A stretch of DNA of 64,000 nt from Mobula hypostoma (lineage: Eukaryota): the NCBI RefSeq assembly GCF_963921235.1, contig NC_086108.1:38008001-38072000 (forward strand), in the 5' to 3' direction. A program made the position numbers and the translations under genes. The notes beneath the pieces were generated by a model that was not told where the DNA came from, made no database searches, and was given only the letters and a program-made list of their open reading frames with translations. This document shows positions 1-56,464 of this stretch, piece after piece (the stretch's first letter is position 1; the number at the start of each line of letters is the position of its first letter).

Positions 1-418
1 GTGTTACAGTAGCACTACAAGTGCACAGATATACAAATATTAGAAGAGAAGTAAGAAAGAGCATTTGGATATTCTAAGCCTGATCAGGAATAGACAGCAT
101 TGTTTTGTGCATAGGTCATCTGATAAATCTTTTAAAGTTTTTCGAAAGGGATAGAAGAATGTAGGGCAGTGGATACTATCTGCATGGATGTTAATAAGGT
201 TTTTTACAATTCTGTATGGCAGGCTGATCTGGAAGGTTAGGTCACATGGAATTCAGTGGAAGCTACGAAGGTGGATTCAGAATTGGCTTGATGAAAGGAA
301 GTAGAGGGTGTAGTTGAATGCAAACAACAGGAATTCTGCAGACGCTTGAAATTCAAGTCACACACATCAAAGTTGCTGGTGAATGCAGCAGGCCAGGCAG
401 CATCTCTAGGAAGAGGTA

Positions 419-456
419 CAGTCGATGGTTCAGGCCGAGACCCTTCGTCACGACTA
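419..456 (-). ncRNA. Degenerate hammerhead copy
   Basis: Same position in PLE tail; core mutated (GTGACGA; GAAC). Confidence 0.6.
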
Positions 457-2200
457 ACTGAAGGAAGAGTTAGTAAGAGATTTGAAAGTGGGAGGGGGAG
501 GGGGAGATAAAAAATGATAGGAGAAGACGGGGGGGGGATGGATAAGAGCTGGACAGGTGATTGGCAAAGGGGATATAAGAGGATCATGGGACAGGAGGTC
601 CGGGGAGAAAGACAAGGGTGGGGGAACCCAGAGGATGGGCAAGGCGTATAGTCGGAGGGACAGAGGGAGAAAAAGGAGAGTGAGAGAAAGATTGTGTGTA
701 TAAAAATAAATAACAGATGGGGTACGAGGGGGAGGTGGGGCATTAGCGGAAGTTAGAGAAGTCGAGGTTCATGCCATCAGGTTGGAGGCTACCCAGACAG
801 AATATAAGGTGTTGTTCCTCCAGCCTGAGTGTGGCTTCATCTTTACAGTAGAGGAGGCCGTGGATAGACATGTCAGAATGGGAATGGGATGTGGAATCAA
901 AATATGTGGCCACTGGAAGATCCTGCTTTCTCTGGCGGACAGAGCATAGGTGTTCAGCAAAGCGGTCTCCCAGTCTGCGTCGGGTCTCGCCAATATATAG
1001 AAAGCCACATCGGGAGCACCGGACGCAGTATATCACCCCAGTCGACTCACAGGTGAAGTGTCGCCTCACCTAGAAGTATACTTGCAAAAATGCCATCCCC
1101 TTCTCGCAATTCCTCCGTCTCCGCCGCATCTGCTTTCAGGATGAGGCTTTTCATTCCAGGACGAGGGAGATGTCCTCCTTTTTTAAAGAAAGGGGCTTCC
1201 CTTCCTCCATTATCAACTCTGCTCTCAAACACATCTCCCCCATTTTACGTACATCTGCTCTCACTCCATCCTCCCACCACCCCACTAGGAATAGGGCTCC
1301 CCTGGTCCTCACCTACCACCCCATAAGCCTCCATCCAACATATTATTCTCCATAACTTCCGCCACCTCCAACGGGATCCCACCACTAAGCACAGCTTTCC
1401 CTCCCCCCCCTCTCTGCTTTCCGCAGGGATCACTCCCTACGCGACTCCCTTGTCCATTCTTCCCCCCCCCCATCCCTCCCCACTGATCTCCCTCCTGGCA
1501 CTTATCCTTGTAAGCGGAACAAGTGCTACACATGCCCTTACACTTCCTCCCTTACCACCATTCAGGGCGCCAAACAGTCCTTCCAGGTGAGGTGACACTT
1601 CACCTGTGAGTCGGCTGGGGTGATATACTGCGTCTGGTGCTCCCGATGTGGACTTCTATATATTGGCGAGACCCAACGCAGACTGGGAGACCGCTTTGCT
1701 GAACACCTATGCTCTGTCCGCCAGAGAAAACAGGATCTCCCAGTGGCCACACATTTCCGCATTCCACATCCCATTCCCATTCTGACATGTCTATCCACGG
1801 CCTCCTCTACTGTAAAGATGAAACCACACTCAGGTTGAGGAACACCTTATATTCCGTCTGGGTAGCCTCCAACCTGATGGCATGAACATCGACTTCTCTA
1901 ACTTCCGCTAATGCCCCACCTCTCCCTCGTACCCCATCTGTTATTTATTTTTATACACACATTCTTTTCTCACTCTCCTTTTTCTCCCTCTGTCCCTCTG
2001 ACTATACCCCTTGCCCATCCTCTGGTTCCCCCCCTTGTTTTTCTCCCCGGACCTCCTGTCCCATGATCCTCTCGTATCCCCTTTTGCCTATCACCTGTCC
2101 AGCTCTTGGCTCCATCCCTCCCCCTCCTGTCTTCTCCTATCATTTTGTATCTCCCCCTCCGCCTCCCACTTTCAAATCTCTTACTAACTCTTCCTTCAGT

Positions 2201-2238
2201 TAGTCCTGACGAAGGGTCTCGGCCTGAAACGTCGACTG
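2201..2238 (+). ncRNA. Minimal type I hammerhead ribozyme in PLE 3' region (intact core)
   Basis: TAGTC-CTGACGA-AGGGTCTCGGCCT-GAAA-CG-TC^GACTG; stem I AGTC/GACT, stem II AGG/CCT, minimal palindromic stem III. Confidence 0.85.
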
Positions 2239-3779
2239 TACCTCTTCCTAGAGATGCTACCTGGCCTGCTGCGTTCACCAGCAACTTTGATGGGTGTAGT
2301 TGAATGTCAATTCTCCTACTGGAGACCCATGATAAGAGGATGCCCCAGGGGTCAGTGTTATGTAAATAATTTGGATATGAATGTACATGACATGATTATC
2401 AAGTTTGCTGATGATAGCAAATTAGGAGGTCTTACTGATAGTAAAGCACATTACAATGCAGCCTAAGGAAATTTTGATCTGTTAGGGAGATGGACTGAAA
2501 AATGGCAAATGGATTTCAAGTTAGATACAAGTGAGGCGATGCATTTTGGTCAGTGAACGGAACTGGAATTAGAACTGCTTATTACTGTCATATTTACTGA
2601 GATACAGTGAAAAGTTTTTGTTGCATATTGCTCCTACAGATCAAATCATTACACAGTGCTAAACCCCATCCAACAACACAATAGCCTAATTAATGGTCAT
2701 GCCATTGTATTGCTTTTTTGTTGTCATGTTTACCAAGATAAAATAAAAAGCTTGTCTTGCATACTGTTCATACAAACGAAATTATTACACAATGAAATAG
2801 GGTAGAATAAGGTAAAACAAAAAAGTGTATCGGGTACAGAGAAAGTGCAATGCAGATACAATAAACATTAAGCTACAAAATAGATTGATGTCAAGAACCT
2901 AATTTATCACACTGGGGAACCATTTTTATTCTGGAATCTGATGGTATGTACTTTCAGGCTTTTGTATCTTCTGCGCAATGGAACCAGGGTAGGACTTATG
3001 CAGTGAATGGCATGACCTTGTGGAAGAGAGGGAGTACACAGGGTGAACAGTTCAGTGAAAGCAGCTATGCAACTAGACAGTGATGAAAGAAGACATTTAG
3101 CATTCTAGCCTTCATCAGTCATAGTATCAGGTTTAGGAGTGGAGACATTATGTTTCAGTTATAGAAGTCATTAGTGAGGACACCCTTGGAGTATTTTATA
3201 CAGTATTCATGACCTTCTTATAAAAAATACATTGTCAAGCTGGGGAAGGTGCAGAAGAGATTTATGAAAATACTACGCGTGTTGTGCAAAGAGGTTGGCC
3301 ATGATGAGCCAGGAGAATCAGGAGTGGCCTCTAAGAAATTCATAACATCATGAGGGTTATGGATAAGGTGAACAGTCATGGGCTTCTCCCCAGGGATGGT
3401 GAATTTGAAACTCAAGGACACAGATACCAGAGTGAAAGATTTAAAACTGACATGACAGGTAACTTCTTTAAACAGCAAGCAGTGATTACCGGAATGAACT
3501 GCCAGAGGAAGTGGTCAAGGTAGGTACGATTGCATTTGGATAGGCACATTAGAGGGTTAAGGGCCAGGTCCAGGCATCTAGAACTAGCAGAGAGGGTACT
3601 GTGGTTGGCGTGTTCCAAATGGGCTGAAAGACCTGTTTCCATGCTATAATACATTATGACTCCATCATTAAATAACTGATTATTTGACTGTTACACAATC
3701 TGTAAAAGTTTGCTCATCTCAAACCAATTTCTACCTTATAACATTGACTACAGTTCTAAAGTACCTACGTATTTACAAA

Positions 3780-4230: not shown

Positions 4231-5050
4231 TCTTTAAGAACTGCTTCTGTTTTTCTTAAACTGAACTGCCACTCAATTGTAATTCATGCTAAAAGACATC
4301 ACTGTCGAAGGTTGAAGGTGCTGCAAAAGATGTCGAAACAACAACACCAATAGATGACATTCCCCAAGAACAAACAATAGGAAGCATGCACCCATATCAA
4401 ACTTCTTCACTTTATCCCATCCACAAGAGCTTGTCTGATTGGATGTCTACTGTACTGAGGAAATGAATCTTGCAATTAGGAGATTTGTATGGGAGTTAAA
4501 TCACACAATTGGTCACTACAATAGCTGACCAGATCCCTAATAAAAATAGACATACAGCTGCACCTCAAACTCTGGGCTACCTGGAGATAGTACGATCAAC
4601 AATCAGGAAGAGTAATCCCTTGACTGATGAGAATTCAGTCTACATGTTCCCAGTGTACAATCATTATCTTTAAATGGTACAAATTGTTCTTAACATTGTC
4701 AAATAATCCATGTATTTCCATGCATGGTGAAAAATGCCACCAGTTTTCAGATTTTTAATTAGCAAAATGTTTTCCAAGGAATATTATAAATGAGAAAATC
4801 CAGTAGAAAGAAGAAAATGTTGATGAGTTTTCTGGATGATGAATAGTAAGACCATAAGACTATAAGATATAGGAGCAGAATTAGACAATTTGGTCCATTG
4901 AGTCTGTTCTACCCTTTCATCGTGTCAGATTCATTTTCTCTCTCAGGCCTAACTTTTTCCCAGGGCTGCTAGATCAATGTAAAGAGATTTTATGTTTCCT
5001 TTGGAGTATTTCTATGCCCTAGTCAGTTGGAAAGCAAAAAGCACTGAGGT

Positions 5051-5532
5051 AACACACACAAAATGCTGGTGGAACGCAGCAGGCCAAGCAGCATCTATAG
5101 GAAGAAGTATAGTCGACGTTTCGGGCCAAGACCCTTCGAAAGGGCTAACTGAAAGAAGAGATATTAAGAGGTTTGAAAGTGGGAGGGGGAGGAGAAGATC
5201 TGAAATGTTTGGAGAAGACAGGAGGGGGAGGGACAGGGCTAAGAGCTGGAAAGTTGATCGGCAAAGGGGATACAGAGCTGGAGAAGGGAGAGGATCACAG
5301 GACGGGAGGCCTGGGGAGAAAGTAAGGGAGAGGGGAGCACCAGAAGAAGATGGAGAGCGGGCAAGGAGTTATTGTGAGAGGGACAGAGAGAGAGAGAAAA
5401 AAAAGGGGAAAATAATTAATAAATAAATAGATAGATAGATAAATAAATAAATGAGGGATGGGGTAAGAAGGGGAGGAGGGGCATTAACGGAAGTTAGAGA
5501 AATCAGTGTTCATGCCATCAGGCTGGAGGCTA
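5051..5532 (-). mobile_element. PLE 3' fragment with degenerate hammerhead
   Basis: Homologous to the PLE tail; 9-bp direct repeat cactgaggt at 5042-5050 and 5533-5541. Confidence 0.8.
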
Positions 5533-5902
5533 CACTGAGGTTCTTGATTTGTCCTTTGAGTTACTTTGCAAATTCGAAGAAAAAGGTTTCTTCTGAGCTC
5601 GGGGAAACACCTCATCATGTCAAGAAAGTAGTGGAATTAATGATGACATTGAAGTGACATGTTCAGAAAAGGTCAATTCAGCTTCTTCCTCCACAGTTGA
5701 TGGCTGACATGCTGAGTACTTATCGCATCTGTTGTAAATTTCACATTTCTAGTGTTCACAGTATTTTCCTGTGAATTAAAACAGCCATAAGGTGGAGACA
5801 AAGTGTTAAATACGTGGGAGACAGGAACAAAAAGTCTGTCTCGGATTTCATTTTGAAGGCACTTGAAGCCTACTTAATTTGGAAAATGCAATTTTATAAT
5901 AC

Positions 5903-15346: not shown

Positions 15347-16093
15347 TAAGAATCTGAAATGGGTACTCTAATCCAGCTTCCTAGATTCAGGTTACAGCCC
15401 TAGTGCTGCAACTCCAGGAGGACTGTAGTTAAAGCCATGTTGAAAGTGACGGGGAGGAACGGGTGGAGTGGGAGACAGGGGTATTGTCCAGTGTCCCAGA
15501 GCAGCCATAGCCTCAATGCTACACACTCTCACCATCTCACCTACCCTCTTTTCCATTAAGGTCATCCATAAAACGCAGTTTGACCAAGCTACTAGTTACA
15601 ATTGCAAAATTAGTTTCCTAGTGAAGAGTCCTGCACTCTCTGGCTCATAAACATACATGGCAGTCCATTGCCAGTAAAATTGTCAAGAAGCAACACAATT
15701 GAATGTCACCAATTTGAAGGTATCTGTCAGTTCGGTTGCCAGCTCTAGTTGAAAAGGTTATTGAAAAATTTTGCGTAATCTCCTATTGCCAGTATATTTC
15801 AGTTTTCTAATGTCCATAGATTTTTTGCCAAGAGCCAAAAGGTCATTTTGTCTCTCTGCTAATCATAACTACACAGCTGTTGAAGTAAATAAGAGGGAAA
15901 ATATCACTCAAAACTTTCCTCCAATGTTGACAGACCAGAGTTCCAGCTATTCACGTTTATTCCCTCAAGCGTCTGGTACAATTAACCCCTGTGTACTATA
16001 TCACAGTAATGTTCATTATGCACATATCAGTATTTTTTCTGGTTCCACTGTTGATGACTGGAAGAGAATAAAGGAATACAGAAGTCTAATCTT

Positions 16094-35040: not shown

Positions 35041-35852
35041 GCTAAGTGTGCTTTTAAATGTTGCTGCTGGAACGAAATAATTTCCCCACTCAGGATCAAT
35101 AAAGTACTTATTATTATGATTATTGCAAAAGTTGTATACAACGTTTGTAATGTTTTCTTTCTGAATGCTGCTTAAATGGTACTATGTGCCTATGAAGCTG
35201 CCATGGGTATGCACAAGTAAATACATGTACTTGTGCATACAGCAATAAACACGTGTTTGACTTTGACTTTAAAATCCAGGGTGGTGCAGCTCAGCCAGCA
35301 GGTTCAAGGCTTCTACATTCCCATACAAGTCTCAAAATTGCCAGCCCTTACAAGGGTAAATACCAGCAGTTCCCTGCAAGACTCCCAGCAAAACCCATTA
35401 AATTCAATCTACTACATCTTAATAACAGGAAATTCCCATGATGGAATTGGGAATTGCTTCACAGTTCTGTTGACTTAAGCAGCTGGTTAGGTCAAGTATT
35501 TCAAGAAAAGTCTGTTCAATTCAGTAAGGACATTATTCTAGAAATTACTGGGGTTATCAACAATGTGCCATTATGAATGTTCTTGAAACACTAATCCATA
35601 TTAAAACAATTGCATATATCTAAATTGATTACCTTGCTAATTATTACAAACAACTTCATTTTATAACATTTCTAAAAGCTAACTTACAGCATCAGCTTTA
35701 GACACAGAGCAACAATATCTGAATGCAACATTTCTTCATACTCTGTTCATACACTGACACCAATGACTGTACCTCATAAATGTATCCCAGACAGCAGCCT
35801 TAATCAGGTTTTATCAATGCACAATAAACTATCCCATCCAGGTGTGTCGCAG

Positions 35853-35985
35853 ACAACAGGAATTCTGCAGATGCTGGAAATTCAAGCAACATACATCAAA
35901 GTTGCTGGTGAACGCAGCAGGCCAGGCAGCATCTATAGGAAGAGGCGCAGTCGACGTTTCAGGCCGAGACCCTTCGTCAGGACGT
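35853..35985 (-). mobile_element. 133-bp PLE insertion consisting of hammerhead plus tail
   Basis: 14-bp TSD caggtgtgtcgcag at 35839-35852 and 35986-35999. Confidence 0.92.
35948..35983 (-). ncRNA. Hammerhead ribozyme core (stem I shortened to 3 bp by truncation)
   Basis: GTC-CTGACGA-AGGGTCTCGGCCT-GAAA-CG-TC^GACTG. Confidence 0.75.
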
Positions 35986-37043
35986 CAGGTGTGTCGCAGC
36001 TTGGTATGATAACTGCTGTGTGTAATGAACCAGATTTGATCAGAGAGCTTGAGGTAAAGGAACCCTGAGGAGTCAGTGATTATGATGTGATAGAATTCAT
36101 CCCTCCAGTTTGAGAGGGAGCAGCTGAAATCAGATGCACTAGTGGAGTAAAGGGTTCTACAGAGGCATGAGAGAGAAGCTGGCCAAAGTTGATGCTACGG
36201 GGACACTAGCAGGGATGACAGCAGAATAGTAATGGCTAGAGCTTCTGGGAGCAATTCAGAAGGTGTAGATCAATTCATCACAAAAAAAGAGGTACTCTAA
36301 AGGGAGGGTGATGAAACTGTGAAAGCTGACAATAGAAGTCAAAGGCAGCATTAAAGCAAAAGAGAGGACATACAATATAGCAAAACATAGTGGGAAGTTA
36401 GAGAAATGGGAAGCTTCTAAAAACCAAGAGAAGGCAAGTATGAGAGAAAAGATGAAATATGAAGTTAAGCTAGCCAATAATATAAAAGAAGATACCAATA
36501 TGTTTTCAGATATACAGTATAAAGAATAAAAGAGAAGCAAGAGTAGATATCAGATCACTGGAAATGACACTGGAGAGGTAGCAATGGGGGACAAAGAAAT
36601 TGCTCACAAACTCAATATGTATTTTGCATCAGTCTTTCCGATGGAAAACACCAACAATGACAGAAATTCAAGTGTGTCAGGGGGCTGATGTGAGTGTAGG
36701 TACTATAATTAAGGAGAAGGTGCTTGGGAATCTGAAAGGTCTGAAGGCAGATAATTCTTCTGGACCAGATGTACTACACCCCAGGGTTCTGATAGATGTC
36801 GCTTCAGATATTCTGGAGGCATTAGTAGAGATCTTTCAAAAATCGCTAGATTCTAGAATGGTTTTAGAGGACTGGAACTTTGCAAATGTCACTGCACTCT
36901 TTAAGAAGGGAGGCCAGTTAGTCTGACTCAGTGATTGGCAAGGAGTTAGAGCCCATTATTAAGTAAGAAGATTCAGGTTAAGCAACACACATCAAAGTTG
37001 CTGGTGAACGCAGCAGGCCAGGCAGCATCTCTAGGAAGAGGTA

Positions 37044-37081
37044 CAGTTGACATTTCAGGCTGAGACCCTTCGTCAGGACTA
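37044..37081 (-). ncRNA. Hammerhead copy with two substitutions around the cleavage site
   Basis: TAGTC-CTGACGA-AGGGTCTCAGCCT-GAAA-TG-TC^AACTG. Confidence 0.65.
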
Positions 37082-39283
37082 ACTGAAGGAAGAGTTAGTA
37101 AGAGATTTGAAAGTGGGAGGGGGAGGGGGAGATCCAAAATGATAGGAGAAGACAGGAGGGGGAGGGATAGAGCCAAGAGCTGGACAGGTGATTGGCAAAG
37201 GGGATATGAGAGGATCATGGGACAGGAGGCCCAGGGAGAAAGACAAGGGGGGGTGGGGAACCAGAGGATGGGCAAGGGGTATAGTCAGAGGGACAGAGGG
37301 AGAAAACGGAGAGTGAGGGAAAGAATGTGTGTATAAAAGTAAATAACAGATGGGGTACGAGGGGGAGATGGGGCATTAGCGGAAGTTAGAGAAGTCGATG
37401 TTCATGCCATCAGGTTGGAGGCTACCCAGATGGAATATAAGGTGTTGTTCCTCCAACCTGAGTGTGGCTTCATCTTTACAGTAGAGGAGGCCGTGGATAG
37501 ACATGTCAGAATGGGAATGGGATGTGGAATTAAAATGTGTGGCCACTGGGAGATCCTGCTTTCTCTGGCGGACAGAGCGTAGGTGTTCAGCAAAGCGGTC
37601 TCCCAGTCTGCGTCGGGTCTCGCCAATATATAGAAGGCCACATCGAGAGCACCGGACGCAGTATATCACCCCAGTCGACTCACAGGTGAAGTGTCGCCTC
37701 ACCTGGAAGGACTGTCTGGGGCCCTGAATGGTGGTAAGGGAGGAAGTGTAAGGGCATGTGTAGCACTTGCTCTGTTTACAAGGATAAGTGCCAGGAGGGA
37801 GATCAATGGGGAGGGATGGGGGGGAGACGAATGGACAAGGGAGTCGCGTAGGGAGTGATCCCTGCGGAAAGCAGAGAGAGGGGGGAGGGAAAGATGTGCT
37901 TAGTGGTGGGATACCGTTGGAGGTGGCGGAAGTTACTGAGAATAATATGTTGGACTCGGAGGCTGGTGGGGTGGTAGGTGAGGACCAGGGGAACCCTATT
38001 CTTAGTGGGGTGGCGGGAGGATGGAGTGAGAGCAGATGTACGTGAAATGGCGGAGATGCGTTTGAGAGCAGAGTTGATAGTGGAGGAAGGGAAGCCCTTT
38101 CTTTAAAAAAAGAGGACATCTCCCTTGACCTGGAATGAAAAGCCTCATCCTGAGAGCAGATGCGGCGGAGACGGAGGAATTGCGAGAAGGGGATGGCATT
38201 TTTGCAAGAAACAGGGTGAGAAAAGGAATAGTCCAGATACCTGTGAGAGTCAGTAGGCTTATAGTAGACATCAGTGGATAAGCTGTCTCCAGAGACAGAG
38301 ACAGAAAGATCAAGAAAGGGGAGGGAGGTGTCGGAAATGGACCAGGTAAACTTGAGGGCAGGGTGAAAGTTGGAGGCAAAGTCAACGAGCTCAGCATGCG
38401 TGCAGGAAGCAGCGCCAATGCAGTCGTCGATGTAAATGCCGCCACCTCCAACGGGATCCCACCACTAAGCTCCTCTTTCCCTCACCCTCCCTCTGCTTTC
38501 TGCAGTGATCGCTCCCTACGCGACTCTCTTGTCCATTCGTCCCCCCCATCCCTCCCCACTGATCTCCCTCCTGGCACTTATCCTTGTAAGCGGAACAAGT
38601 GCTACACATGCCCTTACACTTCCTCCCTTACCACCATTCAGAGCCCCAGACAGTCCTTCCAGGTGAGGTGACACTTCACCTGTGAGTCGACTGGGGTGAT
38701 TTACTGCGTCCGGTGCTCTCGATGTGGCCTTCTATATATTAGCGAGACCTGACGCAGACTGGGAGACCGCTTTGCTGAACACCTACGCTCTGTCCGCTAG
38801 AGAAAGCAGGATCTTCCAGTGGCCACTCATTTTAATTCCACATCCCATTCCCCATTCTGACATGTCTATCCACGGCCTCCTCTACTGTAAAGATGAAGCC
38901 ACACTCAGGTTGAGGAACAACACCTTATATTCCGTCTGGGTAGCCTCCAATCTGATGGCATGATCATCGACTTCTCTAACTTCCGCTAATGCCCCACCTC
39001 CCCCTCGTACCCCATCCATTATTTATTTATATACACACATTCTTTCTCTCACTCTCCTTTTTCTCCCTCTGTCCCTCTGACTATACCCTTTGCCCATCCT
39101 CTGGGTTCCCCCCCCCCTTTGTCTTTCTCCCTAGGCCTCCTGTCCCATGATCCTCTCATATCCCTTTTGCCAATCACCTGTCCAGCTCTTGGCTCCATCC
39201 CTCCCCCTCCTGTCTTCTCCTATCATTTTGGATCTCCCCCTCCCCCTCCCACTTTCAAATCTCTTACTAACTCTTCCTTCAGT

Positions 39284-39321
39284 TAGTCCTGACGAAGGAT
39301 CTCGGCCTGAAACGTCGTCTG
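39284..39321 (+). ncRNA. Hammerhead copy, intact core, one stem I mismatch
   Basis: TAGTC-CTGACGA-AGGATCTCGGCCT-GAAA-CG-TC^GTCTG. Confidence 0.7.
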
Positions 39322-40304
39322 TACCTCTTCCTAGAGATGCTGCCTGGCCTGCTGCGTTCACCAGCAACTTTGATGTGTGTTGCTTGAATTTCCAGCATCT
39401 GCAGAATTCCAGTTGTTTGCGAGATTCAGGTTAAGGTTACTTGGAGGTATGTGACAAAGTAGGCCAAAGTCAGTATGGCTTCCTTCAGGGAAAATATTGC
39501 CAGACAAATCTGTTGGAATTCTTTGAGGAAATAACAGGATGGCTAAGTAAAGGAGAGTCAGTGAATGTTATGTAGTTGGATTTTCATAAGTCATTTGACA
39601 AGGTGTTGCACATGAGGCCGCAAAACAAGACAAGGATCCATGGTATTAGAGGAACTATACTACCATGGATAGGAGATTGGCTGAGAGGCAGGGACCTCCT
39701 CCCTCCCTCACTACCATTCAGGACAAACAGTCCTTCCAGGTGTGGCAACACTTCACCTTTGAGTCTGATGGGGTCATATACTATATCTAGTGCTCCCGGT
39801 GTGCCCTCCTATATATAGATGGGTCCCGGGTAGAAAGGGAGAACGCTTCGCCGAGCACCTATGCTCCATCCGCCTGAAAAAGCGGTATCACCTAGTGGCC
39901 ATTCATTTTAATTCCACTTCCCATTCACAATCCAATATGTCCATCCATGGTCTTCTCTACTGTCACAATGAGGCCACACTCAGGTTGGGGGGACAACACC
40001 TTACATTGTCATAAGCAGGTGGCTGGGAACGGACCCAAGTGCAAGACACAGACACCGAAGTACTAGGGACAGGACTAGGATACAGGGTGAGGGCAAGGAC
40101 ATGGACACGAAAACCAGGAACCTGGAACAGGACTGGACAACAGAGCTAGGAGCCCGGGCTTGAACTCTGAGCCAGAGACTGGGCAAGGACCAAGTACCTG
40201 GGTCTTGCCTCTGGCTTGGACCCCAGAACTAGGCAAGGACGGGGCTTGGCTGGCAGGCTGGACGAGGCTGGAGTCTTAGAGACTTGAGGCGAGGCTTGGC
40301 AGGA

Positions 40305-40416
40305 GGCAGGAGGCTGGAGTCTTCAGGCTTGAGGCTAGGCAGGAGGCTGGAGTCTTCAGGCTTGAGGCTAGGCAGGAGGCTGGAGTCTTCAGGATTGAGG
40401 CTAGGCAGGAGGCTGG
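40305..40416 (+). repeat. 33-bp minisatellite in LTR (~3.4 copies)
   Basis: Unit ggcaggaggctggagtcttcaggcttgaggcta. Confidence 0.9.
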
Positions 40417-41554
40417 TTTCCATGGGCATGGTGCAGTTCCCCTGGGCAGAGCATAGTTCTCCATCTGACGGAGGCAAGGGACAGGAAGGGACCAAACCAA
40501 CCGCAGGTAACGGCAAGACGGCCTGACTTACTCGATGGAGGCTAGGGACAGGAAGGGACAGAAACAACCACAGGGTAATGGCAAGACGGCCTGACTTACC
40601 CGGCGGAGGCAAGGGACAGGAAGGAAGCTCGGTACGAGGCGGCTCCAGGACAAGACAGCAAGACAAGGCAAGGCTTCAGGCAATGCAAGGCAAGACAGAA
40701 CTACAGGCGAGGCAAGAATTACCGGCAAGACAAGGCAGGGCTTCAGGCCAGGAAACAGAAGGCAGGGGAAGGGGTAGAAGGAGTAAGGACAAGAAAAATC
40801 CAGCCCCACGCCCCAGTCTCTGAAGGTATTTATGCAGCCAGCCCCAACGAGCATCAGCTGCCTCAATTAGAGCTCAACAAGAACAGAAACAGGGTAGACA
40901 GGAAACCCTGGAGCAAGGGTCGATGGACCGGACCGTGAACTGGAATATGGACCTCACGGACCGGACCATAACAGTACCCCAATACCCCACCTCCCCCCAC
41001 CCCCCCCACGGGAGCCTCCTGGTGACCAAACAGGGTATCCAGACTATGGACAACCCGGGCGGGTGGGAGGGTATTTAAACAGAAAGGAACCCCAGGTGGC
41101 AAGAGGAAAATGACAGTGCCTGTGTTGCTGGGTCCATGGTTGGCTGGATTGTTATTTTATAAGGAGGTGGCTGGGAATGGACCCATGCAAGACACAGACA
41201 CTGAAGTACCAGGGACAGGACTGGGATACAGGGTGAGGGCAAGGACATGGACACAAAAACTGGGAACCCGGGACAGGACTGGACAAGAGAGCTAGGAGCC
41301 CGGGATTGGACTCCGAGCCAGAGACTGGACAAGGACCCAATACCTGGGTCTTGCCTCTGGCTCAGACCCCAGAACAAGGCAAGGATGAGGCTTGGTTGGC
41401 AGGCAGGACGAGGCTGGAGTCTTAGAGATTTGAGGCGAGGCTTGGCAGGAGGCGGGAGACTTGAGGCAAGAATTGGCAGGAGGCAGGGGATGAGGCGAGG
41501 CTTCAGGCTTAGGGCTAGAGATTCAAGGTGAGGCTTGGCAGGAGGCAGGACAGA

Positions 41555-41750
41555 GCTGGAGTCTTCAGGCTTGAGGCTAGGCAGGAGGCACGAGTCTTCA
41601 GGCTTGAGGCTAGGCAGGAGGCACGAGTCTTCAGGCTTGAGGCTAGGCAGGAGGCACGAGTCTTCAGGCTTGAGGCTAGGCAGGAGGCTGGATTCTTCAG
41701 GCTTTAGACTAGGCAGGAGGCTGGAATCTTCAGGCTGGAGGCTAGGCAGG
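41555..41750 (+). repeat. 33-bp minisatellite in second LTR (~6 copies)
   Basis: Same unit, with a cac variant in three consecutive copies. Confidence 0.9.
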
Positions 41751-43384
41751 ATGCCACCCCTTCACCATTTCCATCCCCCTTTCGTCTCCCTCTGGTGCTC
41801 CTCCCACCTTTTCCTTCTTCAATGGCCTTCTGTCTCCTCTTATTAGGTTCCCCCTTCTCCAGCCCTATATCTCTTTCATCAATCAACTTCGCAGCACTTT
41901 ACCTCACCCCTCCCCTTCCCGGTTTCACCTGTCACATTGTGCTTCTCCTCTCCTCGCCCAACTGTTTAATTCTACTCCTCATCTTTTTCCTCCAGTCCTA
42001 CCAAAGGGTCTCAGCCCAAAATGTCCGTCCACTGTACTCTTTTCCATAGATGCTGCCTGACCTGCTGAGTTCCTCCATCATTTTCTATGTGTTACCAACA
42101 GTCATATGCAGCTTAAGAAATATTAGCATATAAGATAACATTAAGCATACTCACAAAACAATATATATAACATAGCCCAAGTCCCTGAGCCCATGGATGT
42201 TGACGGCATGAATAAGCCTGCAGCAGTCTGCAGAAGAATGTAATCCAGTTTGTCTTCCACAGAGTGCCACACCGTCTCCAGTATCACCTCTCCTGGGTGG
42301 CTGCAACAGGCAACACCACGGTACGAGGCCCAGCCCATGCTGTGACGAGGTCACGCAGCTCCCCCACCATCAATCCCACCATTAACTCAGTGAACTGGAC
42401 TTGCTGCATAACACATTATAAATGTCCAACAGGGTCCTGCATCACAAGAAAAATGACTAAGACTACCATTTGTTGTTAGACTGCATATCACCCTCATGCA
42501 TCCAGCTCCAACGCCTCTATGTTGCAGGCAGCAATGTGGTCCGCACCAAGTCCAGCTCCTCTGCCAATGGACAACTCGCTGATGGGATAGACCTACAGTG
42601 CTTGAAGTTGTTAATATCTGTCAATGTCTTGCAATTGTAAAAAAGACAATTACAAAAGACAATAACACCTTTGGGTGTCCTCATATAGGCCAGTGCATTC
42701 GAGCACAAGATTTGGATGATGGAATTGATGGCTTTGTAGCCAAGTTTGAAGGTGATACAAAGATAGGTGGAGGGGCAGATAGTATTGAGGAAGCAGGGAG
42801 TCTGCAGAAGGATTTCAATAGACTAGAAGAATGAGCAAAAAAGTGGTAGATGTTATGCAGTGTAGGGAAGTGCCTGACCATGCACTTTGGTAGATGGAAA
42901 AAGGTGTAAAATATGCAAGTCCTTGTGCAGGATTCCCTAAAGTTAACTTGCAGGGAAAGTCAATCTTAAGAAAGGTAAATGGAATATTAGCATTCATTTC
43001 AAGAGGTCTATAATATAAAAGCAAGAATGTAATTTAGAGGCTTTATAAGGAATTAGTCAGAACATATTTCGAGTATTATAAAGCAATTTTGGCCCCCTTA
43101 TCTAAGAAAGGATGTGCTGGCACTGGAGGTTGTCCAGAGGAGATTCAGGAGCATGTACAATGAGTTCATGTATAAGGAGTGTTTGATGGTTCTGGGCCTG
43201 GAGTTTAGAAGAATTAGGGTGATCTCATTGAAACCTATCGAATATTGAAAGGCCTATCTAGAGAGGTAGAGAGGACATAGATAATGCAAACACGAGGAAT
43301 TCTGCAGATGCTGGAAATTTAAGCAACATGCATCAAAGTTGCCGGTGAACGTAGCAGGCCAGGCAGTATCTCTAGGAAGAGGTA

Positions 43385-43422
43385 CAGTCGACGTTTCAGG
43401 CCGAAACCCTTCGTCAGGACTA
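43385..43422 (-). ncRNA. Minimal type I hammerhead ribozyme (intact), sense to KCNT2 pre-mRNA
   Basis: TAGTC-CTGACGA-AGGGTTTCGGCCT-GAAA-CG-TC^GACTG. Confidence 0.85.
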
Positions 43423-43473
43423 ACTGAAGGAAGAGCTAGTAAGAGATTTGAAAGTGGGAGGGGGAGGGGGAGA

Positions 43474-44788
43474 AGCTCTCCACTTCTTTTTGGATTCCAG
43501 ACTTAATCAGTTCCCCTCTACCACCACTCTGCTCCATCTAGCGGAATTAGTCCTTACTCTTAATAATTTCTCCCTTGGCTCCTCCCACTTCCTCCAAACT
43601 AAAGGTGTAGCAATGGGCACCCATATGGGTCCTAGCTATGCCTGCCTTTTTGTTGGCTTGTGGAACAACCTATATTCCAAACCTATTCTGGTATCTGTCT
43701 CCCACTTTTCCTTTGCTACATTGATGACTGCATTGGAGCTGCTTCCTGCATGCATGCTGAGCTCGTTGACTTCATTATCTTTGCCTCCAACTTTCACCCT
43801 GCCCTCAAGTTTACCTGGTCCATTTCCGACACCTCCCTCCCCTTTCTAGATCTTTCTCTCTCTATCTCTGGAGACAGCTTATCTACTGATGTCTACTATA
43901 AGCCTACTGACTCTCACAGCTATCTGGACTATTCCTCGTCCCACCCTGTCTCTTGCAAAAATGCCATCCCCTTCTCGCAATTCCTCTGTCTCCGCCGCAT
44001 CTGCTCTCAGGACGAGGCTTTTCATTCCAGGATGAGGGAGATGCCCTCCTTTTTTAAAGAAAGGGGCCTCCCTTCCTCCACCATCAACTCTGCTCTCAAA
44101 CGCATCTCCCCCATTTTACGCATATCTGCTCTCACTCCATCCTCCCGTCACCCCACTAGGAATAGGGTTCCCCCGGTCCTCACCTACCACCCCACCAGCC
44201 TCCGGGTCCAACATATTATTCTCCGTAACTTCCGCCACCTCCAACTGGATCCCACCACTAAGCACATCTTTCCCTCCCCACTCTCTCTGCTTTCTGCAGG
44301 GATGGCTCCCTACACGACTCCCTTGTCCATTCGCTCCCCCCCCCCATCCCTCCCCACTGATCTCCCTCCTGGCACTTATCCTTGTAAGCGGAACAAGTGC
44401 TACACATGCCCTTACACTTCCTCCTTTACCACCATTCAGGGCCCCAGACAGTCCTTCCAGGTGAGGCGACACTTCACCTGTGAGTCGGCTGGGGTGATAT
44501 ACTGCGTCCGGTGCTCTCGATGTGGCCTTCTATATATTGGCGAGACCCGACGCAGACTGGGGAGACCGCTTTGCTGAACACCTACGCTCTGTCCGCCAGA
44601 GAAAGCAGGATCTCCCAGTGGCCACACATTTTAATTCCACATCCCATTCCCATTCTGACATGTCTATCCACGGCCTCCTCTACTGTAAAGATGAAGCCAC
44701 ACTCAGGTTGGAGGAACAACACCTTATATTCCGTCTGGGTAGCCTCCAACCTGATGGCATGAACATCGACTTCTCTAACTTCCACTAA
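43474..44788 (+). pseudogene. Frameshifted PLE polyprotein: RT, Cys-rich linker, GIY-YIG endonuclease (Neptune-like)
   Basis: QTKGVAMGTHMGPSYA, YIDDC, CKRNKCYTC, GVIYCVRCSRCGLLYIGET, RFAEH, ATHF; frame changes near 43660 and 44560. Confidence 0.88.
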
Positions 44789-45086
44789 TGCCCCACCTCC
44801 CCTTCATACCCCATCCATTATTTATTTATATACACACATTCTTTCTCTCTCTCTTCTTTTTCTCCCTCTGTCCCTCTGACTATACCCCTTGCCCATCCTC
44901 TGGATTTCCCCCCCCTCCCCCTTTTCCTTCTCCCTGGGCCTCCTGTCCCATGATCCTCTCATATCCCTTTTCCCAATCACCTGTCCAGCTCTTGGCTCCA
45001 TCCCTCCCCCTCCTGTCTTCTCCTATCATTTTGGATCTCCCCCTCCCCCTCCCACTTTCAAATCTCTTACTAGCTCTTCCTTCAGT

Positions 45087-45124
45087 TAGTCCCGATGAAG
45101 GGTCTCGGCCCCAAATGTCGACTG
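45087..45124 (+). ncRNA. Degenerate hammerhead copy
   Basis: Core mutated (CCGATGA; CAAA). Confidence 0.55.
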
Positions 45125-45683
45125 TACCTCTTCCTAGAGATGCTGCCTGGCCTGCTGCGTTCACCAGCAACTTTGATGTGTGTTGCGTGAGGACATAGAT
45201 AAGATGTTTCTTATAGTGAGGGTGTCGAGGATGAGAGGAAACAACCTCAGCATAGAAGTACGTTCCGTTAAAAAGAGGCGAGCAAGAATGTCTTTAACAA
45301 GATGGTGATGATTCTGTGAAATTCATTGTCACAGATTGATGCAAAGGCCAAATGATTGTGTATATTTAAAGCAGAAGCTGAAAGGCTCTTGGTTGGTAAG
45401 GGTGTCAAAAGTTATGAAAAGAAGGCAAGAGAATAGTTTTGCAAGGGATAATAAATCAGCATGTTGGAATGGCAGAGCAGACCCAATGGGCCTAATGGCC
45501 TGATTCTACTCCTATATCTTATGATCACATAAGAAGGCACTCTTGACCTCACAATCCACCTTGTTATCACCTTGCACCATACTGTCCGTCTGCACTCTCT
45601 CTATAACTGTAACATCTTATTCTGCATTCTTTTATTGTTTTTCCTTGTATGATATCAAAACATGGAAACAATGATTTGATCTA

Positions 45684-47879: not shown

Positions 47880-50800
47880 AGAATAATACAGCACAGTACA
47901 AGCCCTTTAATCTAACCCCACCCTCCCACAAAGCCCAGCATTTGTCTTTCATTCATGTGCTTAAGAGATGGTTAAGTGCCCCTAATGAATCACAATCTAC
48001 TACCATCACCCCTGGAGTGCATTCCATGCACTTACCACTCCATGTGTAAGAAAACCAACAGCTGACATCCCCGCAAACTTTCCACCAACATCTTAAAATT
48101 ATGCCTCCTCGTATTAGCCATATCTGCCCTGCGAAGAAGTCTCCAGCTGTCTGCTCTATCTATGTTTCTTATCATCTTGTATGCTTCTATCAATCACCTC
48201 TCATCCTCCTTCTCTCAAAAGAGAAGAGTGCTAGCTTGCTCAACATATCCCCATAATACATGCTCTCTAATCCCAGCCTTATCCCCATGACATGCTCTCT
48301 AATTCATGTCCCCCTCTGGCTCTCCTAAATTCATTCTTAATCTCCTTCCTTGCCACTTTGTAACTCTCGAGAGCTCTGAGTGATCCTTGCTTTCTAAACC
48401 TTTTGCAAGCTTTTATCGTGCTCTGGACTGGATGTTCCACATCTCTTGTCAACCATGGTTCCTTAACCCTACTATCCTTCCCCTGCCTCAATGGGACAAT
48501 CCTATCCAGAAAATCATGCACGTTCCCTAAACACCATCCACATTTCTGTTGTACATTTCCTTGAGTATATCCGTTCCCAATTTATGCTCCCCAGTTCCAG
48601 CCCAAGAGCGTCATAATTCACCCTCCCCTCAATAAATGCTTTCCCATACCAACTCCTCCTATACCGTTTCAAGGCTATGGTAAAGATTAGGGAATTGTGG
48701 TCACTGTCTTGGAAATGTCCGCCTACCAAGAGATCTGTCATCTGACCATGTTCATTGTCTAGTACCAGATCTAGTTTGGTATCTCCTCCAGTTGGTCTGT
48801 CTACATATTGCATCAGGAATTTTTCCCGGTCACACCTAATAAACTCTACCCCATGCAAACTCTTTGCACTGAGGATGTGCCAATCAATATTAGGGAAGCT
48901 GAAGTCAACTCTGTTATTTTTTGCATCTTTCCAAAATCTGCCTCTGGATCTGCACTTCTTTGTCTCTGTTTCTATTGAGGAGTCTATAAAATACTCACAA
49001 TAGAGTAATTGATCCCTTCTTATTTCTGACTTCCTCCCACACTGACTCAGCAGATGGTCCATTCATGATATCCTCACTTCCTGCAGTTATGAAACTCTCC
49101 CTGTTCATCAATGCCACTATTTTACGTCCCTCCCTGTCCCTTTTGAACAAATTAGCCAGAAAAAGTGGCTCACCTGAGGACTGGGAGAAATTCAGAGTTC
49201 AGCAGAGGAGGACAAAGGGCTTAATTAGGAAGGGGATAAAAGATTATGAGAGAAAACTGGCAGGGAACATAAAAACTGACTGTAAAAGCTTTTATAGATA
49301 TGTAAAAAGGAAAAAACTGGTAAAGACAAATGTAGGTCCCCTACAGACAAAAACAGGTGAATTGATTATGGGGAGCAAGGACATGGCAGACCAATTGAAT
49401 AATTACTTTGGTTCTGTCTTCACTAAGGAGGACATAAATAATCTACCAGAATTAGTAGGGGACAGAGGGTCCAGTGAGATGGAGGAACTGAGCGAAATAC
49501 ATGTTAGTAGGGAAGTGGTGTTAGGTAAATTGAAGGGATTAAAGGAAGATAAATCCCCAGGGCCAGATGGTCTGCATCCCAGAGTGCTTAAGAAAGTAGC
49601 CCAAGAAATAGTGGATGCATTAGTGATAATTTTTCAAAACTTGTTAGATTCTGGACTAGTTCCTGAGGATTGGAGGGTGGCTAATGTAACCCCACTTTTT
49701 AAAAAAGGAGGGAGAGAGAAACCGGGGAATTACAGACCGGTTAGCCTGACGTCAGTGGTGGGGAAACTGCTGGAGTCAGTTATCAAAGATGTGATAACAG
49801 CACATTTGGAAAGCGGAGAAATCATCGGACAAAGTCAGTATGGATTTGTGAAAGGAAAATCATGTCCAACGAATCTCATAGAATTTTTTGAGGATGTAAC
49901 TAGTAGAGTGGATAGGGGAGAACCAGTGGATGTGGTATATTTGGATTTTCAAAAGGCGTTTGACAAGGTCTCACACAGGAGATTAGTGTGCAAACTTAAT
50001 GCACACGCTATTGGGGGTAAGGTATTGATGTGGACAGAGAATTGGTTAGCAGACAGGAAGCAAAGAGTGGGAAAAAACAGGACCTTTTCAGAATGGCAGG
50101 CAGTGACTAGTGGGGTACCGCAAGGCTCAGTGCTGGGACCCCAGTTGTTTACAATATATATTAACGACTTGGATGAGGGAATTAAATGCAGCATCTCCAA
50201 GTTTGCGGATGACACGAAGCTGGGTGGCAGTGTTAGCTGTGAGGAGGATGCTAAGAGGATGCAGAGTGACTTGGATAGGTTGGGTGAGTGGGCAAATTCA
50301 TGGCAGATGCAATTTAATATGGATAAATGTGAAGTTATCCACTTTGGTGGCAAAAATAGGAAAATAGATTATTATCTGAATGGTGGCTGATTAGGGAAAG
50401 GGGAGGTGCAATGAGACCTGGGTGTCATTATACACCAGTCATTGAAAGTGGGCATGCAGGTACAGCAAGCGGTGAAAAAAAGCGAATGGTATGCTGGCAT
50501 TTATAGCGAGAGGATTCGAGTACAGGAGCAGGGAGGTACTACTGCAGCTGTACAAGGCCTTGGTGAGACCACACCTGGAGTATTGTGTGCAGTTTTGGTC
50601 CCCTAATCTGAGGAAAGACAACCTTGCCATAGAGGGAGTACAAAGAAGGTTCACCAGATTGATTCCTGGGATGGCAGGACTTTCATATGAAGAAAGACTG
50701 GATGAACTGGGCTTGTACTCGTTGGAATTTAGAAGATTGAGGGGGGATCTGATTGAAACGTATAAAATCCTAAAGGGATTGGACAGGCTAGATGCAGGAA

Positions 50801-52774: not shown

Positions 52775-52955
52775 ACTGCAGATACTGGAAATCTTAAGGA
52801 ATCATGCAAAATGCTGGAGGAACACAGTAAGTCTGGCAGCATCTATGAAGGGGAATAAATGGTTGATACTTCAGGATGAGACAGGACTAGAAAGGCAGAA
52901 GAACGAGCCCCTTTCTGGCCTCTCCCCTCTTCCTTTCCAGTCTTGATGAAAGGTC
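52775..52955. mobile_element. Old miniature PLE tail remnant, apparently head-to-head
   Basis: Minus-strand tail followed by plus-strand ctttccagtcttgatgaaagg hammerhead remnant. Confidence 0.5.
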
Positions 52956-54988
52956 AGGTCTCTGATCATTAGTCCATGTATCCGGGCTATTAGTCTGGTA
53001 ACCATCACCGTAATACCATTATAAACTATTGCCTCTGTGTTGACCACTGACTAATTCATACAAAATATAACTTTTTGCTATTGTTCTCTCTCTACAACTA
53101 ACCGAAGAGGTTATCTTAAGGGTTCTATCTGCTGCCATATAGGACAGAAGGTACAACCCACTCTTCCTACTCAATCAGAAACTGGGTCTAAGATAAAGAA
53201 GTACAGTTATTTCAAAATGTCTGCTTGAAAAAAAGGTAACAGGGAGTTACGTATACGTTATTAACCTGCAATATCGGCTAATTAGCTATTGCTCTTCATT
53301 TGCTGCTGGGCATTCTGTCAGAATGAGCTGGGAGTCAGTAGACAAAAGACCTCTGTACATGCATGAAGGGGTTAAAAATAACACATTATCAGTGTAATTC
53401 CAAGTCAAATTAATTTAGACGACAGACCTCCTTTTTTTGGACTTAAACTCAGATCACTATGGCAGCTGTCCGTCCACTTCTGAGATAATCTCGGAACCTC
53501 AGCTACAAATGTGGCACACTTCATAGTCTACTGCAGATTCACGCAGAGAATTAAGCAGCACTATGCCAGTGCAGACTGCACACATGCCCTAGGATGCTCC
53601 ATTGTGTAATATTCTGGATGACACCACATCAAAGAGCTTCTTGTTGTGCTTACAAAGTTCATTTGTAAGCTCTGAATCTTAAGGCACAGCTTGTGGCTGC
53701 CTCAGTACTTTCTCTACCTTAGTAATGCTCATAGTTTAGTGAACTGCTGGGGCCAGCAATGACATGTACCTTAGGAGCACTAGGTACCACAGTTCCTCCA
53801 GTCCCAGCACTTTATGCTACATGCAGCAGGAACACTGAAATGGTGTTAGTTTGTTAATCTTGCATGATCAGACAAAATCCGTTGTTGTGTACATGGCAGT
53901 ACAGAGCATGGAACAGAGTTGTGGCTCTATCACCTACATTCAGTGCATGGATAATGAAATTCTTTATCTCTGGGGAAAATAATACATCATCTTATGGCAG
54001 TCAGCAAAGCCAACAGTCTTTTGATTGTGGGGAAAAAAACATATAGGAAATAAAGTTTGACAACTTCACTATGCTCCAAAAAATGTAGGTGCTGAAGGGG
54101 TAAGAACCAATTGTAAATCCTGGGACAGGCATCATGCCATATGTCAAAACTTAACCCTCACTAACAGCTGTTCATTGTCAAACTGATCATGTCCAAGCAC
54201 AATTTTACTTTGATATTCCTGTCTGCAAATAATGTATAATTGAGTAACTGAATTCAGAGCAGGGCCCTATTTATTGGATTTGTTCCTTTACAGAGGAGTA
54301 AGATAATTGTGTGACATGCCAGAATTGAATTTAGCTTTAATTTTTCATCATATCATTTCCCATTATGCCTGAGTGATTCCTCTCTTTTCCAATAAAGCAT
54401 TATTGCAATCTCACTAAATTAATGCATTTGACAAATGCATTACAGTTCAATTATATTATGACTTTATATAGTATTTCTGCAGAGGGATGACCTCTAAAAA
54501 AGACAGTTCAGTGATGATGAGTTTCTGACTAATCATTATTAAACTATGCTTCCTATCTGTGTAAAAAAGAAAATTCTTCCTTTTATCAGAAAGAAAAGAA
54601 GTTCTATAATCACTATTTTGGTGAGTACTATTGGACTAGGTGACTAAATTAAATCCCACTCTAATTTTACCTGCCGTAAAATTCCTATTTTGCCATTTAT
54701 TGAAATATTCAGCACACTATGAAATGGCCTTACAAAACAGATGAGTGTAAGACAGCAGGCAGTGGTAATTCAATGAAAAAATGTTGTTTGCTTTGTATGG
54801 ACTCCATGTATGAGAATAAGGGGCGCAGAGATATATTTGCTAGAATCTATAAAACACACTTTTCAGATAAAGATAAAGGTAGCTTCTGACAGATTCGGAA
54901 TTAATCAAGTTGTAGAGTCATTTCAACAGCATGGACATAGGCCCTTCAATCTACCACATCAGCAGCAAACGTATGCCCACCTATACTT

Positions 54989-55056
54989 TGATGTGTGTTC
55001 GTTTACCAGCAACTTTGATGTGTGTTCATTTACCAGCAACTTTGATGTGTGTTACT
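54989..55056 (+). repeat. TSD-flanked tandem of a 27-nt PLE-tail segment (~2.5 copies)
   Basis: Units 55000-55026 and 55027-55053, c(g/a)tttaccagcaactttgatgtgtgtt; flanking repeat cccacctatactt at 54976-54988 and 55057-55069. Confidence 0.88.
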
Positions 55057-56464
55057 CCCACCTATACTTGCCTGAATTAATTTCCTGTCCCTCAACACCG
55101 TGCTCATTCAAGTACTTGCCTTGATGCCTTTGGAATACTGTTACTGTTTGGGCCTCCTCTACCAGCTCTGGCAGCTCATTAAAGATACCACCTACTTTAT
55201 GAAAAATTGACCCCTCAGATCTCCATTAAACCGCCTCTCTCCCACCGAAGTGCACCTTATGAACTTTGCTGCTGGTAAATTATTTCTGCAGCTCCAAGGG
55301 ATTTTTTAAATATCAAGGCTGCCCAAAATCCATCCTCAGAATTTAATTCTCTGTCAGTAACATTCTATCATAGCATAGATTCTTTGTACACTGCATTAAA
55401 GTCAAAGGAATGAATTTCAGAGTTAGAGTAAAACATGCCAACTATAACTAAATGTTTTGTTAACATTACTAACTAGGGATGAATTTCCAGCACTTGACTG
55501 TATGAGACTACTAGAGTATAATTTATTCTGAATGTAAATTAAAGTTGAGACCACGATGTGACATCTTATATAATGATTAAGGTAAAATAAAGAAAATGAT
55601 CTGAAACTCCTTCATATGCTGCAGCTGATGGAGAAAAACACAACAGTTACAAGTCTGGCAACTGTCCAAACATGCACCACAATCTCATCACTCCAAGGAA
55701 AATTAAGTTCTCCATTCACTGGTACCTAAATACCGCCTCAATTGAGACAGGCATCGCTGTTCTAAAAATAAAAATGGAGCAAATTAAGTTAAAAGGCTTC
55801 CAGAGTTACTGTTGATATAATGAAACATTACTTTAAGTTCTGGATGTAACCAATGCAAAGATGGAGCTTGACATGATTTCACACTGTCTTCTCACTGCTT
55901 ATCCAATTCTGATTTCAATGACAAGTGACACCTCATATTTTTACTTAATGTGAAGATAAAACTACCATACATCAAAGCAAAATGTGTATTTTAACTGTCA
56001 TATATAATTCTAATTTGCTGAAAGAAAGTATTACCCAAAATTATTTGGCTATTGACTTAGTCCTGAGAATAATTCTCTCAACTTGTAAACAGGGCAATGT
56101 TATTCTCAAAAATAACAATATCTCAAATGTCAAATTTAAACAACTGCAAATGAACTGCTTTCAGAAATCCATAACATTTGAGACACAGATGGAATGATCT
56201 TGCCATAGCTCATTATTTAAAAACAATTTACATGAATTAAATCACCATACATGGATAATTTCCCATTCAATTGGAAATAATTCTTTTGTTTTTGCAATTA
56301 TCATGAACAAGACATGTCAATGTAAATCATCGTTTTGAAATATCAAGATATTATGAGTGCAGAATGAATAGGTAACTGATATTATTTCTGTAATTTACAG
56401 ATGTAGCATCATTATTCTATATTTTAGTAGAAGTATTGCTGAAAAACTAGCATTTATCATGCTG

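What the first reader, a model, noticed from the sequence alone, without database searches (positions are those of the whole stretch)
43271..45202. Head-to-head PLE insertion 3 and a shared asymmetry: one full tail, one tail ending in the ctttgatgtgtgttgctt motif
Seen: in all three inverted insertions one arm reaches the terminus (..gtttgc) and the other ends roughly 35-50 nt earlier inside the same ~15-nt motif (at 2291, 36983, 45186). TSDs are 14-15 bp in these three and in the 35853 insert. Inference: two preferred priming sites on the RNA, one used at each side of a ~14-nt staggered GIY-YIG cut, which would be a defined double-priming integration pathway. Three cases is a small sample.
Basis: partly seen in the sequence, partly recalled or inferred. 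Interest (0 to 1): 0.7.

Follow-up and report, generated by a model that had tools for sequence, protein, structure and literature searches.

The report
Two-armed Penelope insertions, one tail
This is a dead, back-to-back pair of truncated copies of a known jumping gene (Penelope-like) inside one 14-base target duplication, with the already described short 'tail' on one arm only; each arm holds sequence the other lacks, which suggests that both cut DNA strands likely started copying the element's RNA at two different points.

Summary
Observation confirmed. Three head-to-head insertions of a Neptune/Nematis-type Penelope-like element (closest named proteins from rays) each lie in an exact 14-15-nt target duplication. 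One arm ends at the long end, the other 36-47 nt earlier. In sequencing contigs of three organisms, all 15 listed 3' loose-end rows fall in these two zones (24 of 1077 rows shown).

The layout is in print: an inverted copy, a 30-40-bp tail 'often only at one end' (PMC8557442, PMC3846280), and two RT start sites bounding the tail with both strands extended in vitro (PMC11167929). The scan has noted the same signature many times on other DNA of this genome.

Added here: the arms are non-nested in 3 of 3, so neither is a fold-back copy of the other on a target-primed cDNA. This favours double priming from a 14-nt 3'-overhang cut. Strict long-with-short pairing is not shown: 3 of 3 has chance 1/8 and no genome was available. 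Insertion 2's arms may come from two source variants (weak). Known kind; modest interest.

The parts
43271..43284 (+). Insertion 3, left TSD copy (14 nt), within a degenerate CR1-type LINE remnant
   Evidence: the left flank 43199-43238 matches three LINE copies of the window at 80-83% over 41 nt; CR1 label recalled
43285..43473 (-). Insertion 3, short arm with the full tail (long 3' end); carries a minimal hammerhead-like motif near 43385-43420
   Evidence: motif read by eye, no Rfam match
43469..43481 (.). Head-to-head junction of insertion 3: 5-bp hairpin with a 3-nt loop
   Evidence: 6.3% of random joins give 5 bp or more
43474..45188 (+). Insertion 3, long arm: 5'-truncated, frameshifted RT + linker + GIY-YIG coding region (stop 44786-44788), 3' repeat, tail-less end at 45186-45188
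45189..45202 (+). Insertion 3, right TSD copy
306..320 (+). Insertion 1, left TSD copy (15 nt with one shared base)
320..1076 (-). Insertion 1, shorter arm (757 nt) with full tail
1074..1083 (.). Insertion 1 junction: 10-nt perfect palindrome whose central 4 nt (1077-1080) match neither arm
1081..2291 (+). Insertion 1, longer arm (1211 nt), tail-less, 46-47 nt short
2292..2306 (+). Insertion 1, right TSD copy
36969..36982 (+). Insertion 2, left TSD copy (last 3 nt also fit the element)
36983..38434 (-). Insertion 2, longer arm (1452 nt), tail-less; open frame from the RT YIDD motif through the GIY-YIG domain
38432..39421 (+). Insertion 2, shorter arm (990 nt) with full tail; 3-nt overlap with the other arm at 38432-38434
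39422..39435 (+). Insertion 2, right TSD copy
35839..35999 (-). Single-arm insert (35848-35983) with the long end, in a 14-nt TSD whose last 4 nt also fit the element end
54976..55069 (+). Comparison case: 13-nt TSD around about 2.5 tandem copies of a 27-nt element segment, each ending in the short-end zone
5042..5541 (-). Comparison case: older single-arm copy (5051-5533) with a short end and a 9-nt direct repeat at its borders
   Evidence: 9 nt or more occurs in 1.1% of random window pairs

Best explanation
Three head-to-head pairs of 5'-truncated Penelope-like copies each sit inside one 14-15-nt target duplication with the 36-47-nt tail on one arm only, and they likely arose because both ends of a staggered cut primed reverse transcription on the element's RNA, one at the long and one at the short internal start site. 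Steps: (1) inferred from TSD geometry: the GIY-YIG endonuclease nicks both strands about 14 nt apart, leaving two 3' overhangs. (2) Inferred here, shown in vitro for the anole Poseidon element: each 3'-OH primes cDNA at an internal RNA site; the tail is the stretch between the two sites. (3) Inferred: 1-4 nt of pairing with the overhang sets the exact base within an 11-nt short-end zone. (4) Inferred: both cDNAs stop early, their 3' ends join by microhomology or end joining, and fill-in gives the head-to-head pair and the TSD. (5) Least certain: a protein dimer holds the two sites at once, which would force one long and one short end.
For: Exact TSDs of 15, 14, 14 nt; none of 5000 random window pairs exceeded 11 nt. 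Non-nested arms in 3 of 3: the tail-less arm reaches further 5' (1211, 1452, 1715 nt) and the shorter arm (757, 990, 189 nt) alone has the tail, so each arm needed its own template. The three inversion junctions lie at different element positions, so they formed at each insertion. Two end zones family-wide: of 24 loose-end rows shown (of 1077), 15 are 3' rows; 9 lie at 39381-39388 and 6 at 39405-39421, the 39405/39410 rows reading on as a long-end variant; three organisms. Each site also works alone: long end only at 35849, short ends only at 54986 and 5051. Overlap with the target at 7 scored 3' junctions sums to 13 nt against 4.8 expected (P 0.006 lenient; 9 nt, P 0.08 strict). PMC11167929: purified PAc cleaves and extends both strands, starts at two internal sites bounding the tail, and is predicted to be a dimer. 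Arms of insertion 1 share 5 minority alleles.
Against: Pairing is 3 of 3 only (chance 0.125); no genome was held and two metagenome scans and one viral scan gave no loci. The tail lies on the shorter arm in 3 of 3, and 2 of 3 junctions have a 5-bp hairpin (6.3% each at random); both also fit a self-primed, endonuclease-resolved intermediate. Insertion 2's arms differ at 6 of 24 family-polymorphic places against 3.2% elsewhere, which is awkward for a single shared RNA, though the AU test does not reject one source (p 0.14 and 0.09). PAc starts at RNA sites not homologous to the cut DNA and shows no strand difference in start site, and it belongs to another clade. The tail hairpin folds no better than shuffles (z -0.9 to +1.4 in 6 of 6 folds). 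One search shows only the top 6 rows per run, not a histogram.
Confidence: 0.62

Rival explanations
1. One cDNA folds back or is self-primed off the chromosome, giving a hairpin; the GIY-YIG endonuclease then cuts its end unevenly, removing the tail from one arm, and integrates it (endonuclease resolution as proposed in PMC8557442; self-priming as in PMC3846280).
For: Tail on the shorter arm in 3 of 3, as this predicts. 5-bp hairpins at 2 of 3 junctions (about 1% by my arithmetic, but the null has no untemplated bases). Junction palindromes are reported in PMC3846280. Insertion 1's arms share 5 alleles.
Against: Short ends vary over 11 nt and overlap the target, unlike a fixed cut. Short-ended units repeat in tandem at 54986 and occur in single-arm inserts. 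In vitro the two ends are RT start sites. Insertion 2's arms differ at 3 non-CpG polymorphic places. PMC8557442 says the tail is found at either end.
Confidence: 0.17
2. Both strands prime on RNA, but each picks the long or the short site independently, perhaps on separate RNAs; the pairing seen here is luck.
For: 3 of 3 has chance 0.125. PAc shows no strand difference in start site. Insertion 2's arms group apart in the best tree (UFBoot 90, 76 without CpG columns).
Against: PMC8557442 describes the tail as often present at only one end. Earlier scan notes report near-universal pairing in this genome (AI notes, unchecked, not counted as support).
Confidence: 0.14
3. Each pair is two separate insertions, or a later fusion of neighbouring copies by deletion or recombination, and records no single reaction.
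For: The family is very abundant (47,721 contigs of one run laid on 271 nt). Possible mixed source of insertion 2's arms.
Against: One exact TSD frames both arms in 3 of 3. The flanks of insertion 2 are collinear on two other LINE copies (gap 116 nt there, about 96 nt here). All arms are 90-95% alike, so of similar age.
Confidence: 0.05

Closest known systems
Canonical EN+ PLE insertion unit with inverted 5'-truncated copy, tail and TSD (Craig et al. 2021, PMC8557442; Pen2a_Av/Pen2_Av of Adineta vaga, PMC3846280; passages read)
   Same: Head-to-head inverted copy, 30-40-bp tail often at one end only, TSD around the unit, palindromes at some junctions.
   Different: TSD 14-15 nt here against 8-10 nt in A. 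vaga. Those papers ascribe the tail to endonuclease resolution and the inversion to self-priming; the passages read give no paired statistics.
PAc, Poseidon element of Anolis carolinensis (Frangieh et al. 2024, PMC11167929; parts 1-3 of 4 read; text of supplements 1-2 only, figures not visible)
   Same: Two internal RT start sites bounding the tail; both strands cut and extended; predicted dimer. The long site lies 111-118 nt into the ORF, which begins in the hammerhead; here the long end is 132 nt past the hammerhead-like core.
   Different: Other clade (no CX2-5CxxC linker). PAc sites are AC-rich and not homologous to the target; here the sense-strand ends are GT-rich and often overlap the target by 1-4 nt. 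The text read does not treat inverted pairs, TSD length or pairing.
L1 twin priming (Ostertag and Kazazian; recalled, no paper read)
   Same: Both target strands prime cDNA and give an inversion inside one TSD.
   Different: In L1 the second priming is at a variable upstream site and the two pieces do not overlap on the RNA; here both start within 47 nt of each other, overlap almost fully, and there is no poly(A).

Membership tests
EN+ Penelope-like elements | RT followed by a C-terminal GIY-YIG endonuclease in one ORF | tested here: met
   Frame 37376-38464 (-) runs from YIDD to the GIY-YIG domain. Pfam PF01541 E 2.3e-4, 21.8 bits, just under the 22.6 cut-off; the second protein given had no hit. 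Many of the 120 listed homologs carry PF00078 or PF01541.
EN+ Penelope-like elements | CCHH motif with two cysteines between GIY and YIG | tested here: met
   GVIYCVRCSRCGLLYIG followed by histidines in the translation; definition
EN+ Penelope-like elements | Inverted 5'-truncated copy, optional 30-40-bp tail, TSD | tested here: met
   tail difference 36-47 nt
EN+ Penelope-like elements | Hammerhead ribozyme motif in the terminal repeat | tested here: inconclusive
   A core-like motif with a palindromic hexamer is visible at 39289-39320, but Rfam gives no hammerhead match at either threshold. Minimal forms are described in PMC4209133 (passages).
EN+ Penelope-like elements | Full-length partial-tandem copy in which the tail runs on into the ORF | not testable with these tools
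   No such copy in the window; no genome held
Neptune/Nematis clades | CX2-5CxxC linker between RT and endonuclease | tested here: met
   CKRNKCYTC / CKQSKCYTC in the translations; definition
Neptune (as against Nematis) | RT phylogeny with named references | not tested
   No clade-labelled reference among the hits; no such tree built
L1-type twin priming | Two non-overlapping RNA segments, first one primed at poly(A) (definition recalled) | tested here: not met
   Arms overlap by 143-938 aligned nt and have no poly(A); it may work like twin priming without being that case

The most novel reading that the evidence does not exclude
PLE integration is an obligatorily asymmetric double-priming reaction: a dimer cuts a 14-nt stagger and its two RTs are locked onto the long and short start sites, sometimes on two different RNAs, so that every two-armed insertion carries exactly one tail.
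Probability: 0.4. Interest if true: 0.6.

Novelty: new member of a known kind. Interest (0 to 1): 0.3.

Why it matters
How Penelope-like elements make their second junction is open: PMC11167929 leaves the steps after first priming unvalidated, and PMC8557442 ascribes the tail to endonuclease resolution. If double priming with paired sites holds, one reaction explains the inverted copy, the one-sided tail and the TSD, and it can be tested in the existing PAc assay. The structure itself is not new, and this window adds three cases and one logical constraint (non-nested arms).

Tried and rejected
No whole genome, so no genome-wide pair count. Exact tail motifs found 0 loci in metagenome contigs and viral contigs; the protein scan of metagenome contigs gave 139 pattern matches, none confirmed. 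Rfam: 0 matches at gathering score, 9 weak matches at E up to 5, none a hammerhead. Folding: a hairpin places the short-end zone at a loop-stem edge in 4 of 6 minimum-energy folds, but no fold beats shuffles; not used as support. No RNA holder on record was listed; run X11 is RNA by guess only, so nothing is said on expression. The two read-laying runs went on end positions and allele shares, so the empty site of insertion 3 was not tested. Flank collinearity: both flanks matched for insertion 2, only the left for insertion 3, neither for insertion 1. A two-RNA origin of insertion 2 was considered and left open: best tree splits its arms, AU p 0.14/0.09; 3 of about 17 non-CpG polymorphic places differ, P 0.016-0.06 by background rate; but arms of different insertions also share minority alleles (38690 in I1R and I3R, not I1L), the polymorphic list was ascertained against I2R, and gene conversion fits too. 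The allele shared by both arms of insertion 3 is common (41% of depth), so weak. No TSD was found for the copies at 7426, 15267, 32129, 41867 and 52776 (5 of 11 tested). Literature: searches listed no paper stating paired long/short priming for PLEs (search 47, 'Penelope-like elements' + 'inverted repeat' + 'twin priming': 0 papers); Arkhipova 2006 was not looked up and Pyatkov 2004 is not held, and either may bear on it. PMC2377424, PMC9977147 and bioRxiv 10.64898/2026.07.22.740005 (passages) added nothing on pairing. No complex was predicted: no full-length protein was at hand.

Full report
What is there. The stretch 43271-45202 is one insertion framed by an exact 14-nt duplication (43271-43284, 45189-45202). 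Inside lie two 5'-truncated copies of one element with their truncated ends together and their 3' ends outward: 189 nt on the minus strand and 1715 nt on the plus strand. Insertions at 306-2306 and 36969-39435 have the same build, with TSDs of 15 and 14 nt. In 5000 random pairs of 49-nt windows no shared word exceeded 11 nt, so the TSDs are real.

The element. The coding frames show the RT YIDD motif, a CX4CxxC linker and a GIY-YIG domain with the internal cysteine pair. Pfam scores the GIY-YIG domain just under its cut-off. The best named homologs are from Mobula (73%) and Hypanus (61-66%), then sharks, so the host is probably a ray (inference). By the criteria in PMC8557442 this is an EN+ Penelope-like element of Neptune/Nematis type. 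The copy in insertion 3 is frameshifted and dead. A minimal hammerhead-like motif lies 132 nt before the long end, read by eye; Rfam does not detect it.

The two ends. In each pair one arm reaches the long end and the other stops 46-47, 36-39 or 36-38 nt earlier. Laying contigs of four public runs on the tail gave 1077 loose-end rows, of which 24 were shown. All 15 shown rows on the 3' side fall in two zones, 9 at 39381-39388 and 6 at 39405-39421, in organisms A, B and D; the other 9 rows are on the 5' side. Run X1 may be the window's own sample, and only the top rows are visible, so this shows two dominant zones, not a histogram. Single-arm inserts use either site: long at 35849, short at 5051, and short three times over in the micro-insert at 54986.

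What the anatomy excludes. In all three pairs the tail-less arm reaches further 5' and only the shorter arm has the tail. A fold-back copy of a target-primed cDNA must lie wholly within that cDNA, so neither arm can be such a copy of the other. The junctions differ between insertions, so they were not inherited from one inverted source. Each arm therefore had its own priming event, unless the intermediate was made off the chromosome and trimmed. The TSD geometry puts both priming 3' ends on 14-nt overhangs (inference from established TPRT logic). At 7 scored 3' junctions the overlap with the target sums to 13 nt against 4.8 expected (P 0.006), or 9 nt when two conditional cases are set to zero (P 0.08). 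Two long ends (I2R, I3L) were left out because the RNA beyond them is not in the window. In insertion 1 the whole TSD resembles the RNA just past the short site (12 of 15 by my alignment), which may explain why that end is the most displaced.

What is not shown. The pairing rule rests on 3 of 3, chance 0.125. No genome was held and three collection scans were empty. Two features fit the published alternative of self-priming plus endonuclease resolution: the tail on the shorter arm in 3 of 3, and 5-bp hairpins at 2 of 3 junctions (6.3% each at random). On one RNA or two: insertion 1's arms share 5 minority alleles, and none of its alleles at 39132, 39135, 39231 reached the 14% listing threshold family-wide, which points to one source. 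Insertion 2's arms differ at 6 of 24 family-polymorphic places (2 of 23 and 1 of 11 for the others) and split in the best tree, but one source is not rejected (AU p 0.14 and 0.09). I leave this open.

Comparison with print. [quoted passage not shown] PMC3846280 describes the same unit with 8-10-bp TSDs and junction palindromes (passages). PMC11167929 shows in vitro that the tail is the stretch between two RT start sites, that both strands are cut and extended, and predicts a dimer (parts 1-3 of 4; supplementary figures S1-S2 gave only scraps of text, and S2 on genomic ends may bear on pairing). So the two preferred sites are known. The explicit double-priming, paired-site model was not found in six searches but is a short step from that paper. 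Earlier notes of this scan describe the same signature on other DNA of this genome, one with 89 of 91 pairs, and others discuss mixed-source arms; these are unchecked AI notes and I do not count them as evidence.

Verdict. A real, ordinary member of a known kind. Double priming is the best reading (0.62); a locked long/short pair is plausible but unproven here (0.4). Interest 0.3.

Noticed in passing
window 54976-55069: 13-nt TSD around about 2.5 tandem copies of a 27-nt element segment, each ending in the short-end zone; needs at least one non-contiguous join, so likely repeated re-initiation. Already a separate finding of the scan (e1-7942514).
   Followed up: partly
window 2292-2306 against 39375-39389: The TSD of insertion 1 resembles the element sequence just past the short site (12 of 15 by eye); the whole overhang may have paired with the RNA.
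   Followed up: partly
window 39375-39383 and 39412-39421: Both end zones finish in a similar GT-rich word; the two PAc sites also lie in similar AC-rich words (template printed). A repeated word may mark each start site.
   Followed up: no
window 39017-39196 against the left arm of insertion 2: Patch in which the two arms of insertion 2 carry different family-wide alleles; two templates or later gene conversion.
   Followed up: partly
window 1074-1083: Perfect 10-nt palindrome at the junction of insertion 1 with four central bases that match neither arm.
   Followed up: partly
window 7426-7523: 97-nt young copy with full tail and no clear TSD (only a 6-nt repeat), starting just past the hammerhead-like motif.
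   Followed up: partly
window 5051-5533, 14608-15347, 21005-21933, 28732-29915, 31566-32264, 39699-40007, 41867-42092, 52776-52844: Older, 67-85% alike fragments of related Penelope-like subfamilies.
   Followed up: no
window 49147-50479 and 57980-59312; 16094-17130: Young LINE copies (CR1-type by recall) in inverted orientation, 94-97% alike.
   Followed up: no
window 10351-10471 and 23622-23779: Long AT-rich inverted repeats that give weak, sub-threshold Rfam microRNA matches; possibly miniature inverted-repeat elements.
   Followed up: no
window 40229-41761: Tandem repeat visible as an 11-residue unit in two open frames.
   Followed up: no
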